Assembly: GCA_038215615.1 (NCBI GenBank)
Contig: JBBQQR010000006.1
Coordinates: 1 to 64,000 of the forward strand
DNA length: 64,000 bases
Reading direction: 5' to 3'
Origin: Vulcanimicrobiales bacterium
Lineage (GTDB): Bacteria; Vulcanimicrobiota; Vulcanimicrobiia; Vulcanimicrobiales; Vulcanimicrobiaceae
Positions 21,001-27,000 of this stretch are shown piece by piece. The stretch's first letter is position 1; every line of letters begins with the position of its first letter. The position numbers are program-made.

Positions 21001-24000
21001 GCTCCGCAGGGGATCGCGCTTGCAGTCGTGAGCGATGAAAACGTTCCCGCTGGTGTGGTGGCGTTGCGCGATCTCGGTTTGGAACGCTTTCGTGACATCT
21101 ACCGCGGTGCGCTGTGCCTGGCATTTCCGACGCTGTACGAAGGTTTTGGCCTGCCGGCGCTGGAGGCGATGGCGTGCGGTGCGCCCGTCGCGGTTTCGCG
21201 CGTCGCATCGCTGCCGGAAGTTTGCGGCGAAGCCGCGCGGTACGTCGACGAACCGCTCAGCGTCGCTGCATGGGAGGCGGCGCTGCTCGAGATTGCGTCC
21301 TCGGATGAGCTGTGTGCGGATCTGTCGCGGCGCGGCCTGGAACAAGCGGCAAGGTTTTCGTGGGACGCGACCGCGCGCGCGACGCTCGACGTGCTTTCAC
21401 AGGCCGGCGCGTGAACGCAATGCGTTCGGCGGCGCACCTGATCGTCGGATCGCGCGACGAGCCGTTCCTAGCGCCGCTGCTTGAATCGATGAGCGGAGCC
21501 GTGGATGCGCTCGTCGTCAACGATAACTCCACCGGCGACTCGCCGCATGAGGAGACACTGCGCGCGAGCTGGTTCGGGCGCACCGGACGGCTCTTCGTCG
21601 ACCGGTCGCCGTTCACGGATTTCTCCGCGGCCCGCAACCGATGTTTGGACCTGCACGCGCAAATCGGCGGTGGTCCGTGGGCCGCTTTCGTGGATGCCGA
21701 CGAAGTGCACGGGGAAGCGTTCGGGCACGTCGCGCGCAATCTGGATGTTGTGCCCCAGAAATACGATTTTTTGGACGGCTACACGTGGCACTTCTTTCAG
21801 TCTTTCGATCTCTACACCTCGATCGAGCGCCGGATGGCTTTTTTCCGCGTGCGGCCGGACGTGCGTTGGGAAGGGCCGGTTCACGAACAGCTGCGTGGAC
21901 TCGATGGCCGCCGGCTGGCGCTGCCGTACGTCTACGCGCACTACGGTCATGTTCTGCCGCCCCGGCGACACGCGGAAAAGGGACGGCAATACGCCGGCCT
22001 CGGGCAGATCGGTGAAGTCGTTCCTGAAGAAAAACTCGACGCGATCGATCCGGCCGTTTATTTCCGCAGCATTTGGCCGATCGTGCTGCGGTTTACGGCG
22101 CAGCATCCGGTCGCTGCTCGAGCAACGATCGCCAGACTCCGGCAGGAGTATGCGCACGAACAGCATCGCGCGATGCAGCTCGCATGGGCGGCGCAGCCGC
22201 CGCTGGTGCGCGCGCGCAACGTCACGCTTAAAATGAATTACGAGCAACGCTGGCGTTCCCGCTTCGCCAACGCGATCGCCCGGCGCCTACTGCGCTAAGC
22301 CCTGCGCGATCGCTTCGCAGAACGCGTCGACGTCTTCTGGTCGCGTGGCATGGTGCGTCATCCAGCGTACTTCGGGAAGCGCCTCGTTGAAGACGTAAAA
22401 AAAGAAACGCTTTTGAATCCGTTCGATAGCGCTTCGGTCGAGCGTCGCAAAGACGGCATTGCAGCGCACGGGACGCGTGATGCGCACGCCGCTGACACTG
22501 CCCAGGCCAGTTTCCAGTTTCTTGGCCATGGCGTTGGCATGATCGGCGTATCTGCGCCAGCGCTCGTCTTGAAGCAGTGCGGAAAACTGCGCCGCGATGA
22601 ACCGCATTTTCGAAGCAAGTTGCATCCCTTGTTTACGCGCGAACGGCGCGGCGCCGCGGTGCAGGCCGGCGTCGAAAAAAACGACTGCCTCGCCGCCCAT
22701 GAGTCCATTTTTCGTTCCACCGAAACTCAGGACGTCGATCCCGAGGTCGCGCGACGCTTCGCGCAATCCCAACCCGAGCGCCGCGGCCGCATTTGAAATG
22801 CGGGCGCCGTCCATGTGAACGAACCAGCCCTGCGCGTGCGCGAATTCACAAAGCTCGCGCAATTCGGCCGGTTCGTACAGCGTGCCGAACTCCGTCGATT
22901 GCGAGATCGAGATAACTCGCGGCTGAACGTGGTGCTCCTCGCGCGACGGATGCGCGAAAACTTTCAGATGCGCGAGTGTCAATTTTCCGTCGGCGCATTC
23001 AACCGCCAGCAGTTTGCAGCCGGCAAAACGTTCGAAAGCGCCGCATTCGTCAGTTTGCAGATGCGCGGTGGCGGGACAGATAACGGCCTCGTACGGCTGC
23101 GTCAAGCAGCTTAGCGCGACGACGTTGGCCCCGGTGCCGTTGAACGTAAAATAGACGTCGCTCCCGGCTCCGAAGACTTCGCGGAATGCCGCCTTCGCGC
23201 GCTCGGTGTATGGATCGTGTCCATAACCGACGGCGTCGCCGTCGTTCGCTTCGGTAATCGCTTGCAGGATCTCGGCGGCGATCGGCGCGTTGTTGTCGCT
23301 GGCGAAAGTGCGAATGGGCCCCGCCTATGTCGGCTGAACGCTGAGCGCTAGCACCTCGGCGCGGATGAGATCTCGCAGAACGGCAATATCGATGTCGGCA
23401 GCGCCGTCAGGCACCGCTCGCGAAAGCAATTCGTAGGCCGTTCCGACGCGGTGCGCCACCAAAGCGAGCGCATCGATCTCCTCGGTCAAATAGTGCGTTC
23501 GTTCGCGTTTGGGTCCAGCGGCGATGAATCCCAGCAACGAGCCGCGGACGCTCATCGGAAGAAGTAGCGCTTCGCTTAATGCGTGCGAACCAAATTCCAA
23601 CTCGAAAGGCTCGTTCCACCGGCGCAACCGGACGATCGCAGCATCGTTAAGTTCCAGTCGTCTCGGAAGTGTCCCGTTGGATGATCGAAGGCATTCGTAG
23701 GTTCCGCTTGCGGCGATATAGATAGCGGCGTAGCGTCCCTCGATGTTTTCGCGGATGGATTCGAACGTTAGCGTGAGCAGTGATTCGGTATCAGTGACGA
23801 CGTCGGCTTCGAGCGCCAACCGGCGGATCGCCGACAACGCCTGCGCCCGTCGACCAAAAAACAGTGCGTTCAACTGCCGATCGACCACCGAGTGGATCGA
23901 GCGCGCGGAAAGACCGACCAGCAACGCCACGCCCAGCGGTACCGCTTTGCCGAGCCACCCGTTTGCGACCGCCGCCCCGAGCCCTCGCTCGAGAATTTGA

Positions 24001-27000
24001 GCTGCCACCCATTCGCCGGCGACAAACAGCGCGACCAGGGCAATCGAGACGAAGCCGAAGACTGCCGCGCGGCTGAAAACGATCGTGACGTCGACCAGAC
24101 GGTGCCTCAAAATCGCGTAGGCGATCGCGAGCAGCGGAACGTCCTGAAAAAGAGACATCCAAGCCGACCACGGCTGGGGGTTCGGATTCGCCAGCAGCGT
24201 AAAATTGGTTATGAGCCACGCTGCCTGCGAGAGCATCACGGCGCCCCCGACCCACCGCGCTTGCGCGCGGTGCTCTTCATCTACGCGAATGAGCCCTTCA
24301 ATCGCTCCTGCGAGAAGGATAACGGAGACGAGCGCCCAGGTGAGGTTTCCGAACCAGGCCGGTGCGACAGAGCCGGCAATTTGGAAGAGTTGGTCATGCG
24401 CCACAAACGATGTCAGGTCCGTCCACGCATTGGCGAGGCCTGCGATCAGAATAAGGGGAAGCGCGATGCGGATAATCACTCCGCGCAACTGGGAGACAAC
24501 CGGTGGAAAACACGCGATGAACAGCAAGAGGAAGTAATAAACGAACAGGCTGGTCATCTGATTCAATACGGTCCCAGCAAACGCGACGAGCGGGGAAGGC
24601 GCCACATCGCCAAACCAGAGAAGCGCCATACTCAGGCCGTAACCGGAAAAGAAGAGAGCAAGTAGGGTCACCTCGCGCCGCCGGGCGCCCCGAATTGCGA
24701 CGAGCACACCTGTTAAGGCGAAAATAGTGAGTAAAAACAGCGTCAGCGGGCCCTCTTCGAGTGGCTTCAAGCTTTTATACTCCGCGGCCACGAGCCTGAC
24801 GTTGCCGAGTACTCCGTGTTGAAGGACTGGAAGAATAACCGTCTGACCGGCGCGCTTGAAATTGGCATCGAGCGCAGCTCGCGCGGGCATCGTCAAAAGC
24901 CAAACGTCTCCGGGACGCAATCCTGCCCGCTCGGCCGGGGACTCAGGATAAATGCTCGTTAAGACTTGATCGCCGTTGTTTGCCGTGGTGCTGTCAAAGC
25001 CAAACATGCCGACGCGATACGGATTGGCGATATCATAGCCGCCCAGCCCAATCGCGGCTATGGCAAGAAAAATGACGACGATTCTCATGGGCTTGCCTCG
25101 TTTGGATCGGTGTTTTAACGGCCTTTTGTTGGGCGGGCCTCGGCGGCCTCTCGCCGGCTATTCGGCCGCCATCGCCGCCGCGGCTGCGGCCGCGCGTCGC
25201 GAAGGACGCATGAAGATCACGAGCGGCGCGCAGACGAAGAAGACAATTGCTGAGAGCCTGAACAGGTAATCGTAGGCGTTCACCGCCGACTGCTGCGCGA
25301 CCAGCGCCGTGAGGACCGGTATCGAATAGCCGTGAGCGTTGGTAACGCCCGAGGCGAGCTCGCTCCAGGCAACCGCGCTCTGCCTGGCAAGCAGTGTGGT
25401 GAGTATTGCGATCCCAAAGCTGCCGCCGAGCTGACGAATCAGCGCGGAGACGCCGGTCGCGCCGGCAAGTTCTTCTTTAGGGACCGCTCCGAGCGTCACC
25501 GTTGTCAACGGCACGAACATGAAGCCGAGCGCGAGTCCTTGCCAAACCCGCGGCCAAAAAACGTCCCAGTAGCCGGCGTCTTGCGTCAGGCCTCCCATCC
25601 ACCAGGTGGAGAGGCCGAAAAGCAGCATGCCGAAAATAACCATTGCGCGCGAATCGACAAAGCGCATCAGCGCTCCGACCATTAGCATGCTTATCGCGGT
25701 CGCAATCGCGCCCGGCAGCAGCGCCATTCCCGTTTGGAAGGCCGTGAATCCCAGTATCGTTTGAAAGAAGAGCGGCAAGATTAAACTCGTCCCGAATAAT
25801 CCAAAGCCCAACACGATGCCGACGATGTTGCCGATGGTAAACGTCCGGAATCGAAAGACGCGGATATCCACCAGTGGATACCGGTCGCGCATCGTTTTAT
25901 AGATGAACCACGTCAGCGCGACGATCGCGACGATCGAGAGCAGCCAGATCGCGCCCGAGTCAAACCAATCGTCGTGCTGCCCGCGCTCGAGCACGTATTG
26001 CAGCGACGCGAGCCCCGCCGTTAGTAAGCCCAGACCTATCCAATCTACACCGCCCTTCGGTTTCTCTAAGAAGTGAGGATTCGGAATGAACTTGAGCGTC
26101 ATCAAAAACGCCGCGATCCCGATGGGAATGTTAATGTAGAAGATGAGCGGCCAGGTGTAGTTGTCGATGATGTATCCGCCCAGCGTCGGACCAACCGCCG
26201 GCCCAACCATTGCGCCGAGTCCGAAGATCGCCATCGCCGCGCCGCGTTTTGACGGCGGATACGTCTCGAACAAGATCGCTTGCGCAGTCGGCTGCAGTGC
26301 GCCGCCGCCGAATCCCTGAATCACGCGGTAGAAGACCAGTTGCCAAATGCTGTGGGCGGTTCCGCAGAGCAGCGATGCGATGGTGAAAATCGCCAAGCAG
26401 CCGGCATAGAAGTTCTTGCGTCCCAGGTATGCGGTCAGCCAGCCGTTGAGCGGCATGACGACGACGCTTGCCAAGATGTAACCGGTCGCTACCCATGCAA
26501 CCTCGTCGATGGACGCACCGAGGTTTCCCGCAATGTCGTTCAGCGCCACATTCACGATCGTCGCATCGATGATCGCCATGATCAGACCAAGCATCACGGT
26601 TATCGTAATGAGCGCGACCGGCGCGTTTGCGCGTGCGCGCAACGGGTTAGACACTAGGGCCGCGGCCGCCGAATCGCATATACTAATCGCATGAAGTTGC
26701 TGCTGGAGATCTTAATTGCGATAATCCTGCACCCGGTTGCATGGATCTTGGTGCTGATCGATCTTGCCGGCCGCGACGACCTGACGACGGCCCAAAAGTT
26801 TATCTGGGGTGTTTTTTCGATCGTCTGGGGCATCGGCCCGATTCTGTACATCCTGGTAGGCGGCGGCAAGCTCTGGTGACATAAGGGGCCAAACCGCGGC
26901 CCTTCCGAACTAATTAGGCGTGCCGAATTCGATAGTCAGGCGAGGCTTACTCGCCCTCGTGCTGCTGGTCGGAGCTCTCTGCGTTGGGATTGCCTCTGCG

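What a model noticed while it worked through the whole genome (the two positions that open the first line are those of the whole stretch)
23325..25088. Nine paralogues of an undescribed PDZ - 7TM - coiled coil - GAF membrane protein family without output domain
Nine genes (g00165, g00179, g00828, g00977, g01928, g02072, g02118, g02122, g02135; 439-587 aa) encode one family with no Pfam or NCBIfam name: an N-terminal membrane anchor, an outward-facing PDZ domain like that of DegS/AlgW, six to seven membrane helices, an invariant Y-x(2)-L-[RK]-H-R-x(2)-D-[VI]-x(5)-SR motif at the inner face, a long helix and a C-terminal GAF domain. I read them as envelope sensors that bind exposed C-terminal peptides in the periplasm with the PDZ domain and pass the signal through the membrane to a GAF domain that acts on a separate partner. 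New would be a large receptor family that couples a DegS-like peptide sensor to a cytoplasmic GAF module instead of to a prote [...]
Evidence so far: All-against-all blastp groups the nine genes; alignment shows the shared motif YAILRHRxxDV. Pfam at E<=0.01 gives only weak PDZ_6 (E 3e-5, residues 44-62) and GAF (E 5e-4, 433-551) on g00828. AlphaFold2 on a 25-sequence alignment: mean pLDDT 79.8, pTM 0.63; strands 26-100, helices 109-133, 138-162, 166-193, 200-228, 242-268, 271-300, 308-327, then 335-430, then an alpha/beta domain 434-558. Foldseek against PDB: C-terminal part matches GAF domains (3ci6 TM 0.69, 3trc 0.70, E about 2e-4), N-terminal part matches the PDZ of AlgW and DegS (7co7, 3gdu; E 3e-3 to 8e-3); no match to the membrane part. 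Invariant in 25 sequences: G56, R274, W279, Y324, D333, R340, F411, L518, G525. Profile search of [...]
(Added by a program. Inside this text positions count along the whole contig: contig position 1 is position 1 of the stretch shown here. "Call 12" and the like, gene names such as g00115 and contig names such as C1 are that model's own, and its searches are not shown. The text may have been shortened before it was handed on; [...] marks where a part breaks off. The agent that wrote the report below was given it as the finding of a first reader that could run no searches.)

Follow-up and report, generated by a model that had tools for sequence, protein, structure and literature searches.

The report
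Kinase-less PDZ–7TM–GAF membrane receptor family
The gene is one of about nine copies of an uncharacterised bacterial membrane receptor that joins an outside PDZ domain to a sensor-kinase-type seven-helix module and an inside GAF domain but has no kinase, so how it passes on its signal is open.

Summary
The ORF at 23325-25088 (-) is real (587 aa) and has eight further matching places in its 2.2 Mb Vulcanimicrobiota (Eremiobacterota) genome, plus a tenth fragment. The domain order PDZ, membrane part, GAF is confirmed, with a better model (pLDDT 91).

- The "long helix/coiled coil" begins with two more membrane helices. The layout is 1 anchor + 7TM + 2TM hairpin + linker helix + GAF.
- The membrane part is not unnamed. 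It is a remote relative of Pfam HisKA_7TM (profile-profile probability 92.6%, controls ≤0.3%). The stretch from the TM5-6 loop through the GAF domain aligns with a real HisKA_7TM–GAF histidine kinase, and one paralogue weakly matches the sensor half of PrsK.

The seven-helix bundle has a GPCR/rhodopsin-like arrangement (Z up to 15.6).

Loop charges place PDZ outside and GAF inside. The PDZ and the bundle are the most variable parts; the juxtamembrane motif, hairpin, linker and GAF are the most conserved, which is the pattern of a receptor family.

No conserved neighbouring gene was found. Rare 1,320-1,330 aa forms carry the same module fused to a winged-helix plus BTAD DNA-binding end.

Verdict: a real, large, unnamed receptor family. 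It is a new variant of a known sensor kind. Ligand and output remain unknown.

The parts
23325..25088 (-). Whole gene, 587 aa plus stop codon. GAGG lies about 10 bases upstream of the ATG.
25026..25085 (-). Residues 2-21: N-terminal hydrophobic helix, either a membrane anchor or an uncleaved or cleaved signal
   Evidence: AF2 helix 2-21; mean hydropathy 1.89 over 80 sequences
24789..25013 (-). Residues 26-100: PDZ domain, predicted to lie in the periplasm
   Evidence: PDZ_6 E 3.4e-5; PDZ_6 in 45 of 80 family members; Foldseek AlgW 7co7 and DegS 3gdv; G-x-hydrophobic-G-hydrophobic loop conserved
24099..24749 (-). Residues 114-330: seven-helix bundle. Remote HisKA_7TM relative with a GPCR/rhodopsin-like helix arrangement.
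   Evidence: AF2 helices; hhalign probability 92.6%, E 4.7e-7 over 214 columns, controls <=0.3%; VIA-align Z 15.6 to 8oyx and 12.2-15.2 to GPCRs and rhodopsins
24069..24119 (-). Residues 324-340: juxtamembrane motif YAILRHRLVDVTIVFSR at the inner face. It is the most conserved segment of the protein.
   Evidence: 53.8% mean pairwise identity; Y324, L327, R330, D333 and R340 kept in >=90% of sequences; aligns with the FRYHMLDI / LRFRLLDV motif of true HisKA_7TM proteins
23895..24068 (-). Residues 341-398: two further membrane helices forming a hairpin, with conserved E359, G392 and (next residue) H399
   Evidence: hydropathy 1.91 and 1.51, identity about 35%; aligns with the same hairpin in the L016 histidine kinase
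23790..23894 (-). Residues 399-433: cytoplasmic linker (signalling) helix with the F-F-R-x-R motif
   Evidence: AF2 helix 378-430; 39% identity; aligned to the L016 kinase linker
23415..23789 (-). Residues 434-558: GAF domain, cytoplasmic
   Evidence: GAF E 4.6e-4; 24.3 bits, over the cut-off, in the six-frame search; GAF in 63 of 80 members; 3trc Z 16.9, rmsd 2.9 over 148 residues
23328..23414 (-). Residues 559-587: poorly conserved tail with one helix (568-582). No output domain.
   Evidence: AF2; 12.9% identity; no Pfam hit

Best explanation
The gene encodes a polytopic inner-membrane receptor.

Anatomy, from outside to inside:
- An N-terminal anchor helix places a small HtrA-type PDZ domain in the periplasm.
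- A variable seven-helix bundle of the HisKA_7TM kind follows.
- A strongly conserved juxtamembrane motif (YAILRHRxxDV) comes next.
- A two-helix membrane hairpin and a linker helix then couple the bundle to a cytoplasmic GAF domain.

Proposed working:
- The variable outer parts (PDZ groove, bundle) take the signal, possibly a peptide C-terminus or another envelope cue.
- The conserved inner parts transmit it.
- Because there is no enzymatic or DNA-binding end, the GAF domain passes the signal on by protein-protein contact with a partner encoded elsewhere, most likely a transcription regulator.

The family is the kinase-less, PDZ-bearing branch of the sensor core that other bacteria use in front of histidine kinases (PrsK type). 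A small sister group uses it in front of a winged-helix plus BTAD DNA-binding module.

Shown: anatomy, homology of the core, topology by the positive-inside rule, the conservation pattern, the expansion, and the existence of the fused forms.
Inferred: the ligand, dimerisation, and output in trans.
For: Anatomy.
- AF2 on 80 sequences gives pLDDT 91.0 and pTM 0.81.

Homology of the sensor core.
- Family TM profile against 7 true HisKA_7TM proteins: probability 92.6%, E 4.7e-7, 214 columns. One reversed and five column-shuffled controls give <=0.3%.
- 2 of 80 members hit PF16927 at E<=0.01, best 3.2e-6.
- A 579-aa family member from a related genome scores 29.9 bits in the six-frame search (cut-off 28.6) and 26.3 bits by hmmscan.
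- The family profile aligns from the TM5-6 loop through the GAF domain with a HisKA_7TM-GAF-HisKA-HATPase_c kinase: probability 96.1%, E 3.6e-9, 268 columns.
- One paralogue hits TIGR02916 (PrsK) at E 1.1e-5, residues 132-565 against profile positions 15-468 of 679.
- HisKA_7TM also precedes HD-GYP outputs.

Topology and conservation.
- Lys+Arg is about 7.0 per sequence in the inner loops and about 1.2 in the outer loops.
- Pairwise identity by segment: motif 54%, linker 39%, hairpin 35%, GAF 31%, PDZ 23%, TM3-TM7 14-22%.
- No position within TM1-TM7 reaches 90% conservation other than Y324 at the end of TM7 and R274/W279 in the TM5-6 loop.
- The PDZ loop is kept.

Expansion, as in sensor families.
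- 9-10 copies in G000, against 16 HATPase_c matches and 13 receiver-domain matches in the same genome.
- Tandem arrays of 3-4 genes in four related loci.
- Seven adjacent matches within 15 kb in G079.

Output type.
- Full-length forms P0186 (1,322 aa) and P0188 (1,321 aa), and forms in G057 (1,330 aa) and G111 (1,321 aa), carry the module followed by Trans_reg_C plus BTAD. Two shorter records, P0187 (851 aa) and P0189 (755 aa), carry the module plus extra C-terminal sequence.
- The added part of P0186 is 31% identical over 732 residues (E 1e-80) to residues 248-970 of a STAND-type regulator in this same window.
Against: - No ligand, partner or expression data exist.
- No neighbouring gene is conserved across the nine copies or across 75 related loci. 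Recurrent neighbours are transport or metabolic genes confined to single orthologue groups.
- The window's STAND/winged-helix/BTAD regulator does not track the family. In the same bacterial family it is found in 40 of 70 genomes against 63 of 70 for the receptor family. G047, G075 and G079 have 8 or more receptor copies and no regulator at E<=1e-20. G033, G059 and G099 have the regulator and no receptor.
- The fused forms are 51-53% identical to each other (35% for P0189), so they probably stem from one fusion event.
- P0001 itself has no PF16927 hit at E<=1. Its PDZ and GAF hits are below Pfam's cut-offs by hmmscan.
- The GPCR-like Z scores (12-15.6) are only just above what helical bundles reach by arrangement alone, by the tool's own note.
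Confidence: 0.55

Rival explanations
1. Inside-out regulator. The cytoplasmic GAF domain senses a metabolite or nucleotide, and the conserved core moves the periplasmic PDZ domain. The PDZ domain is then the effector that tethers, activates or releases a periplasmic protein such as a protease or an envelope enzyme.
For: - GAF domains are typical small-molecule sensors. The closest folds include the cAMP-binding Lcd1 GAF (5w10, Z 15.3) and the PtsP GAF (3trc, Z 16.9).
- There is no cytoplasmic output domain.
- PDZ domains are protein-binding modules, and the binding loop is kept.
Against: - The same core feeds cytoplasmic outputs wherever an output is attached: kinase, HD-GYP, winged helix plus BTAD.
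- GAF and linker are conserved while the PDZ domain is variable. That fits a shared inner interface and diversified outer recognition.
Confidence: 0.12
2. Kinase-less modulator or decoy. These would be remnants of PrsK-like kinases that lost the kinase and now act by forming mixed oligomers with, or sequestering, other membrane sensors.
For: - The core is homologous to real kinases.
- The tail after GAF is a short helix at the place where the kinase's dimerisation helix would begin.
- Non-enzymatic kinase-like proteins are described in archaea (PMC5847659, passages read).
Against: - G000 has no HisKA_7TM kinase to pair with. PF16927 gives only two sub-threshold matches (E 0.02-0.04) in 344-383 aa frames.
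- 1,525 representative clusters with near-constant length and a conserved GAF domain argue for a function of their own.
Confidence: 0.1
3. Direct regulator of neighbouring membrane transporters. The receptor would gate an adjacent transporter by contact in the membrane or through its GAF domain, as PII proteins gate Amt.
For: Transport genes lie near many copies:
- MFS, 69 bases upstream of this gene
- EamA, Amt, MgtC and two SBP_bac_5 genes near other paralogues
- Amt in 6 loci, and SBP_bac_5 and TauE in others
Against: - The neighbours differ between paralogues. Each linkage is confined to one orthologue group of close relatives.
- Several copies have no transporter next to them.
- Transport genes are common everywhere, and I ran no enrichment test.
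Confidence: 0.07
4. Transporter or membrane enzyme with regulatory ends.
For: - The protein is polytopic (10 helices).
- One conserved acidic residue (E359) lies in the hairpin, and there is a conserved R/H/D cluster at the inner face.
Against: - The bundle TM1-TM7 has no position conserved at >=90% apart from Y324 at its end, and it is the least conserved part.
- It is homologous to sensor modules.
- There is no Pfam transporter or enzyme hit at E<=1.
Confidence: 0.04

Closest known systems
HisKA_7TM (Pfam PF16927), the N-terminal 7TM sensor region of histidine kinases
   Same: - Seven helices, with the aromatic-x2-L-R-x-R-x2-D juxtamembrane motif at the end of TM7.
- Profile-profile probability 92.6% over 214 columns.
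- A few family members reach or approach Pfam's own threshold.
   Different: - P0001 itself is not detected.
- No kinase, PAS or HD-GYP domain follows.
- A PDZ domain and an extra anchor helix precede the bundle.
PrsK, the XrtA/PEP-CTERM system histidine kinase (NCBIfam TIGR02916), and the L016-type HisKA_7TM-GAF-HisKA-HATPase_c kinases
   Same: - Same core order: 7TM, motif, two-helix hairpin, linker helix, GAF.
- hhalign probability 96.1% over 268 columns to the L016 kinase.
- One paralogue matches PrsK profile positions 15-468 at E 1.1e-5.
   Different: - The score is far below the PrsK cut-off (24 against 300 bits).
- The kinase half (profile positions 469-679) is absent.
- A PDZ domain is added.
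- No exosortase gene was seen beside the nine copies.
DegS/AlgW (HtrA-family envelope-stress proteases with a peptide-sensing PDZ domain)
   Same: - Membrane-anchored, with a periplasmic PDZ domain of HtrA type.
- Foldseek 7co7 E 7.4e-3 and 3gdv E 8.7e-3, at 21-24% identity.
- The carboxylate-binding loop is kept.
   Different: - No protease domain.
- The PDZ domain is joined to a 7TM receptor and a GAF domain.
- Peptide binding is untested.
Membrane-anchored SARP-like regulators formed by fusion of this module (P0186, P0188, G057 and G111 forms)
   Same: - The same PDZ-7TM-hairpin-GAF module, at hhalign probability 99.9%.
- Found in the same bacterial family.
   Different: They continue for about 750 residues into a helical region, a winged helix (Trans_reg_C) and BTAD. 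The window's protein stops after GAF.
GPCR and microbial-rhodopsin seven-helix folds
   Same: Helix arrangement only. In the membrane-domain-only search, 48 of the 50 listed entries are by title GPCRs, GPCR-like designs, LYCHOS/GPR155 or rhodopsins; 2 have uninformative titles. Z ranges 12.2-15.6 with 195-230 residues aligned.
   Different: - 6-13% identity, with no sequence relationship shown.
- The Z values are close to the range that helical bundles reach by arrangement alone.
- No G-protein or retinal features were examined.

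Membership tests
PDZ domain (Pfam PDZ_6/PDZ_2/PDZ) | Profile match at or above the gathering score | tested here: inconclusive
   P0001 scores 23.9 bits against a cut-off of 27, E 3.4e-5. PDZ_6 at E<=0.01 is found in 45 of 80 members, best 1.9e-7.
PDZ domain (Pfam PDZ_6/PDZ_2/PDZ) | PDZ fold | tested here: met
   AF2 places strands and helices at 26-100 with pLDDT 90-98. Foldseek matches the PDZ domains of AlgW (7co7) and DegS (3gdv) at E 7e-3 to 9e-3. The match is weak.
PDZ domain (Pfam PDZ_6/PDZ_2/PDZ) | Carboxylate-binding loop x-hydrophobic-G-hydrophobic. The motif is recalled from general knowledge of PDZ domains, not taken from a call. | tested here: met
   G27 in 61 of 80, a hydrophobic residue at 29, G30 in 67 of 80, F/L/M/Y at 31 in 58 of 80.
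GAF domain (Pfam PF01590) | Profile match and GAF fold | tested here: met
   21.2 bits by hmmscan against a cut-off of 22.4. 24.3 bits, over the cut-off, in the six-frame search of the same place. 63 of 80 members. 3trc Z 16.9, rmsd 2.9, 148 residues.
HisKA_7TM (PF16927) | Profile match at or above the gathering score (28.6 bits) | tested here: not met
   P0001 has no hit at E<=1. None of the other eight paralogues has a hit. 2 of 80 members hit at E<=0.01. One relative scores 29.9 bits in the six-frame search and 26.3 bits by hmmscan.
HisKA_7TM (PF16927) | Seven membrane helices ending in the R-x-R-x2-D juxtamembrane motif, alignable over the full length | tested here: met
   hhalign probability 92.6%, E 4.7e-7, 214 columns with the motifs aligned. 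Reversed and shuffled controls give <=0.3%.
HisKA_7TM (PF16927) | Followed by a signalling output (HisKA/HATPase_c or other) | tested here: not met
   No output domain in P0001 or in any of the 80 members scanned. Among proteins of 1,029-2,935 aa only a winged-helix plus BTAD form was found, a search the tool itself calls weak evidence.
PrsK (NCBIfam TIGR02916) | Equivalog score of 300 bits or more | tested here: not met
   P0001 has no hit. The best paralogue scores 24.3 bits, E 1.1e-5, covering only the sensor half of the profile.
PrsK (NCBIfam TIGR02916) | Histidine kinase domains and linkage to exosortase/PEP-CTERM genes | tested here: not met
   No HisKA or HATPase_c domain. No exosortase gene among the neighbours scanned. 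The genome as a whole was not searched for exosortase.
HtrA/DegS-type protease | Trypsin-like protease domain | tested here: not met
   Only the PDZ part matches: TIGR02037 residues 42-63 at E 0.13, and PDB protease Do at E 0.19.
GPCR/rhodopsin-like 7TM fold | Seven-helix bundle superposable on solved members | tested here: inconclusive
   Z 15.6 (8oyx, rmsd 3.9, 208 residues), and 12.2-15.2 to GPCRs and rhodopsins. The tool warns that helical bundles reach about 13-14 by arrangement alone.

The most novel reading that the evidence does not exclude
These proteins are a third type of bacterial transmembrane signalling, beside two-component kinases and chemoreceptors. They would be GPCR-like seven-helix receptors with a peptide-reading PDZ ectodomain. 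Their only cytoplasmic element, a GAF domain, would relay the signal in trans to shared partners such as SARP/BTAD-type regulators. In Vulcanimicrobiota they would be as numerous as histidine kinases.
Probability: 0.2. Interest if true: 0.75.

Novelty: new variant of a known kind. Interest (0 to 1): 0.5.

Why it matters
- Scale. The family has about 1,500 clusters at 50% identity and carries no name in the sources seen: 'hypothetical protein' or 'GAF domain-containing protein'.
- Weight in small genomes. In small Vulcanimicrobiota genomes it has nine or more copies. In this genome that compares with 16 HATPase_c and 13 receiver-domain matches. These are abundant, mostly uncultured soil and peat bacteria.
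- The open question. A receptor that ends in a GAF domain raises how a signal leaves a sensor that has no enzyme or DNA-binding part. The fused winged-helix plus BTAD forms give a concrete, testable lead.
- PDZ as an input domain. The family would add a PDZ ectodomain to the known input domains of HisKA_7TM-type sensors, linking envelope-peptide sensing of the DegS kind with a non-proteolytic pathway.
- Annotation. The work gives the membrane part a family assignment that standard annotation misses.

Tried and rejected
- Homodimer prediction of residues 327-587, two copies, with the 80-row alignment. The tool gave no answer (score 0.00, mark 0.42). This is not evidence either way.
- Sequencing runs. 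No RNA holder is listed, and one DNA study holds the stretch. I did not lay reads.
- Longer 'fused' forms seen as long open frames are upstream read-through or a frameshift, not fusions. These are L038 at 732 aa, L053, L063, L068 at 794 aa, L071 at 789 aa, L072, and G116 at 1,127 aa. For G079 (706 aa) and G136 (733 aa) I only listed the ORFs and did not inspect them.
- STAND/winged-helix/BTAD regulator as an obligate common partner: rejected on loose co-occurrence.
- P0190 (772 aa) has transposase-type HTH domains in front of the module. I did not rely on it, because it may be a gene-call fusion.
- Conserved partner gene by neighbourhood: none found across paralogues.
- Promoter and terminator scan of 22900-27000: matches at or below the shuffled expectation.
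- SARP adjacency of the PDZ-less copy. I searched for its relatives, but the loci have only 1.5 kb flanks, so I did not take it further.
- Literature. Searches for HisKA_7TM, PrsK with PEP-CTERM and histidine kinase, PDZ with GAF domain, seven transmembrane and bacterial, and Eremiobacterota/Vulcanimicrobiota with GAF/PDZ listed no paper describing this architecture. Of the listed papers I read only passages of PMC5847659; the rest I saw as search listings.

Full report
**Observation.** The ORF listing gives one long ORF at 23325-25088 on the minus strand: ATG start, 587 aa (translation). GAGG lies about 10 bases upstream of the start. NCBIfam gives only noise-level MamE/DegP PDZ matches. phmmer against PDB sequences gives 'protease Do' at E 0.19.

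**Copies in the genome.** The window is contig 6 of a 2,210,573-base, 54-contig genome rated 100% complete. A six-frame search finds nine places at E<=1e-3 (13 candidates scored).
- Seven copies are full-length genes of 565-587 aa.
- One (C26:1-639) is cut by a contig start.
- One (C34:147-1466, 439 aa) has no PDZ domain but starts 146 bases from a contig start.
- An all-against-all blastp of neighbouring ORFs shows a tenth, 309-aa fragment running off the end of C34. It may be the missing front of the C26 copy.

The paralogues are old. This gene is 50% identical to one copy and 30% or less to the others, while orthologues in other genomes are 58-93% identical.

**Organism.** Source names on close homologues and the titles of related contigs place the organism in Vulcanimicrobiota, also called Eremiobacterota, near Candidatus Rubrimentiphilum.

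**Anatomy.** With an 80-sequence alignment (A2), AlphaFold2 gives mean pLDDT 91.0 and pTM 0.81. The elements are:
- helix 2-21
- a strand-rich domain at 26-100
- seven helices between 114 and 330
- helices 334-370 and 378-430
- an alpha/beta domain at 434-558
- a last helix at 568-582

Foldseek confirms GAF (3ci6 TM 0.71, 3trc 0.70) and, weakly, the PDZ domains of AlgW and DegS. VIA-align gives Z 16.9 to the 3trc GAF. Over the 80 members, Pfam finds GAF in 63 and PDZ_6 in 45.

**The 'long helix' begins as a membrane hairpin.** Segments 341-366 and 379-398 have mean hydropathy 1.91 and 1.51 over the 80 sequences. That equals the other membrane helices, which range from 0.99 to 1.94. I therefore read them as a membrane hairpin, not a soluble coiled coil.

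**Topology.** Lys+Arg counts fit one topology. The loops 1-2, 3-4 and 5-6 and the motif segment carry 1.0, 0.5, 2.5 and 3.0 per sequence. The loops 2-3, 4-5, 6-7 and 8-9 carry 0.1, 0.2, 0.2 and 0.7. By the positive-inside rule (established knowledge), the PDZ domain is periplasmic and the GAF domain cytoplasmic.

**What the membrane part is.** One homologue carried a precomputed PF16927 (HisKA_7TM) label, which prompted the tests below.
- hmmscan finds PF16927 in 2 of 80 members, best E 3.2e-6.
- A six-frame search of 151 genomes of the phylum finds PF16927 over its cut-off in 7. One of these matches is a 579-aa member of this family (29.9 bits; 26.3 bits by hmmscan).
- I cut residues 105-345 out of A2 and compared them by hhalign with seven true HisKA_7TM proteins from that search. 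These proteins continue into PAS-HisKA-HATPase_c, GAF-HisKA-HATPase_c or HD-GYP. One is cut by a contig end and weakly matches PrsK.
- The result was probability 92.6%, E 4.7e-7 over 214 columns spanning all seven helices, with the YAILRHRLVDV motif on the FRYHMLDI motif.
- One reversed and five column-shuffled templates gave 0.3% or less.

The relationship extends beyond the bundle. The whole-family profile aligns from the TM5-6 loop through the motif, hairpin, linker helix and GAF with the L016 kinase (HisKA_7TM-GAF-HisKA-HATPase_c) at probability 96.1%, E 3.6e-9, 268 columns. Paralogue C30 matches NCBIfam TIGR02916 (PrsK) at E 1.1e-5, covering profile positions 15-468 of 679, which is the sensor half only. 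So the protein is the sensor core of a PrsK-like kinase without the kinase, and with an anchor helix and a PDZ domain added in front.

HisKA_7TM is listed as a sensor domain of archaeal and bacterial kinases in PMC5847659 (passages read). I did not see any ligand for it in the passages read.

**Fold of the bundle.** VIA-align against 48,161 chains matches residues 107-333 to a designed GPCR-like fold (8oyx, Z 15.5), Ste2, GABA-B and rhodopsins. I then folded residues 105-430 alone with 32 sequences (pLDDT 81.8) and searched again. Of the 50 listed entries, 48 are by title GPCRs, GPCR-like designs, LYCHOS/GPR155 or microbial rhodopsins, and 2 have uninformative titles. Z is 12.2-15.6, rmsd 3.6-5.2, with 195-230 residues aligned. 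The tool warns that helical bundles reach about 13-14 without kinship. This therefore shows a GPCR/rhodopsin-like helix arrangement, not homology.

**Conservation pattern.** Mean pairwise identity over 600 random pairs of the 80 sequences is as follows.

| Segment | Identity |
|---|---|
| Juxtamembrane motif | 53.8% |
| Linker helix | 39.0% |
| Hairpin helices | about 35% |
| Loop 5-6 | 33.1% |
| GAF | 31.0% |
| PDZ | 23.0% |
| TM3-TM7 | 14-22% |
| Outer loops | 10-15% |
| C-terminal tail | 12.9% |

Positions conserved at 90% or more are G56 and G60 (PDZ), R274 and W279 (inner loop 5-6), Y324/L327/R330/D333/R340 (motif), E359, G392, H399, F411, and L437/P511/G520/E537 (GAF). None lies inside the bundle. 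A variable outer part with a conserved inner part is what diversified receptors show. It speaks against a transporter or enzyme. The PDZ carboxylate-binding loop pattern is kept, with G30 in 67 of 80, so peptide binding is plausible but untested.

**Spread and expansion.**
- phmmer over 1.84 billion representatives finds 1,525 at E<=1e-3. Nearly all of the best 150 that are not fragments are 540-630 aa.
- Of 75 related loci in species-representative genomes, 54 are Vulcanimicrobiota by title, 19 are Pseudomonadota (mostly Gammaproteobacteria MAGs) and 2 are unclassified. The search pattern was the motif itself, so this sample is biased.
- The protein atlas adds clusters whose commonest phylum is Acidobacteriota; all are named 'hypothetical'.
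- In a sample of 151 genomes of the phylum, 80 have a match at E<=1e-10: 63 of 70 in the window's own family, 8 of 9 in a second family, weak matches in 8 of 16 of a third, and none in the rest. These tallies include one genome flagged unpublished, G127.
- Only 9 candidates per genome were scored in that search, so the many counts of '9' are lower bounds.
- Tandem arrays occur: four genes in L037, L089 and L090, and three in L034. G079 has seven adjacent matches within 15 kb.
- G000 has 16 HATPase_c matches, which also include non-kinase ATPases, and 13 receiver-domain matches in 11 frames. This family is thus about as large as its two-component set. G000 has no HisKA_7TM kinase.

**Output.**
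- No member of A2 has an output domain.
- Long open frames in GC-rich relatives proved to be read-through or a frameshift.
- A search among proteins of 1,029-2,935 aa found one real fusion, P0186 (1,322 aa). It has the module at residues 38-516 (25% identity, E 3e-12), then Trans_reg_C and BTAD at the end.
- A second search across the junction found P0188 (1,321 aa, 51% identity, same domains), P0187 (851 aa) and P0189 (755 aa; family profile probability 100%, 497 columns).
- The same form occurs in two genomes of the window's own bacterial family, G057 (1,330 aa) and G111 (1,321 aa; module at 24-568, probability 99.9%).
- The appended part of P0186 (residues 592-1308) is 31% identical over 732 residues (E 1e-80) to residues 248-970 of a 977-aa ORF in this same window. 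That ORF, at 53628-56561 on the plus strand, has an N-terminal AAA/STAND NTPase signature followed by Trans_reg_C and BTAD.

In the fusion, the receptor module takes the place of the NTPase as the input of a DNA-binding regulator. This shows that the module can drive a transcriptional output in cis.

It does not show that the stand-alone proteins use that regulator.
- The regulator is single-copy in G000.
- It is found in 40 of 70 genomes of the bacterial family, against 63 of 70 for the receptor.
- There are clear mismatches both ways.
- The fusions are 51-53% identical to each other, so they probably arose once.

**Neighbourhood.** This gene lies 69 bases downstream of an MFS transporter gene (25158-26654, MFS_1 E 4.4e-63) and about 220 bases upstream of a beta-eliminating lyase gene. 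A multicopper oxidase gene is divergent beyond the MFS gene. That order is kept only in 7 close orthologous loci. The other paralogues sit beside EamA, an aspartyl protease, pyruvate phosphate dikinase, an M1 peptidase, Amt, MgtC, two SBP_bac_5 genes, DoxX and others. In 75 related loci, the only recurrent neighbours belong to single orthologue groups. No signalling partner is linked.

**Mechanism and verdict.** The best reading (0.55) is a periplasm-facing, probably oligomeric receptor. Its variable PDZ domain and bundle take the signal, and its conserved motif, hairpin and linker pass it to the GAF domain. The GAF domain then acts on a partner encoded elsewhere, most likely a transcription regulator.

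The rivals are:
- an inside-out regulator with the PDZ domain as effector (0.12)
- a kinase-less modulator of other sensors (0.10)
- a direct regulator of neighbouring transporters (0.07)
- a transporter or enzyme (0.04)

The finding is real and the family is large and unnamed. It is, however, a new architecture built on a known sensor core rather than a new kind of system. The DegS-like peptide mechanism and the trans-acting partner remain inferences. Interest 0.5.

The remark that the closest relatives of the PDZ-less copy are frames of about 600 aa rests partly on two genomes flagged unpublished, G162 and G173.

Noticed in passing
window 53628-56561 (+): 977-aa STAND-type regulator: weak AAA_22 at the N-terminus, Trans_reg_C at 754-818 and BTAD at 831-969. 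It is single-copy in the genome. Its residues 248-970 are 31% identical to the C-terminal 730 residues of the fused PDZ-7TM-GAF regulators.
   Followed up: yes
G000 contig C34 (L022) 1-12089: Three family genes lie on one 12-kb contig: 147-1466, 8034-9776 and 11162 to the contig end. Between them is a 1,012-aa Trans_reg_C plus AAA_16 (AfsR/SARP-like) gene at 1400-4438 (-), convergent with the first copy and overlapping its end, and a lactonase-like gene.
   Followed up: partly
L022 7242-7946 (-) and 9800-11026 (+); related loci L045-L058, L065, L068, L069, L077, L095: The orthologue group of the C34:8034 copy has a conserved divergent neighbour in 15 loci: a 234-261 aa protein with a twin-arginine-like signal and no Pfam family. 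An ammonium transporter lies directly downstream in 6 loci. In other loci the neighbours are a metallo-beta-lactamase/rhodanese fusion and a TauE sulfite exporter.
   Followed up: partly
L015 (G002:C95) 5-889 and 989-1873 (-): A PrsK-like HisKA_7TM fragment (TIGR02916 E 2.7e-17) lies next to a membrane protein that, by eye, looks like an exosortase. I ran no family scan on that neighbour.
   Followed up: no
window 26920-28800 (+): A 626-aa ORF joins multicopper oxidase domains to a C-terminal ZIP-transporter-like region (Zip E 3.1e-8, below the cut-off). The same pairing is seen in an orthologous locus, L029.
   Followed up: no
window 19306-20820 (-) and 20047-21414 (+): Two long overlapping ORFs on opposite strands both give glycosyltransferase family 1 hits (E 8e-27 and 1e-15). 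At most one can be the real gene over the overlap.
   Followed up: no
window 62001-64000: G+C drops to 0.539 against 0.59-0.65 elsewhere in the window.
   Followed up: no
L020 10017-11489 (-) (G000:C1:156433-157908): A 491-aa protein with two retropepsin-like aspartyl protease domains lies just downstream of the closest paralogue.
   Followed up: no
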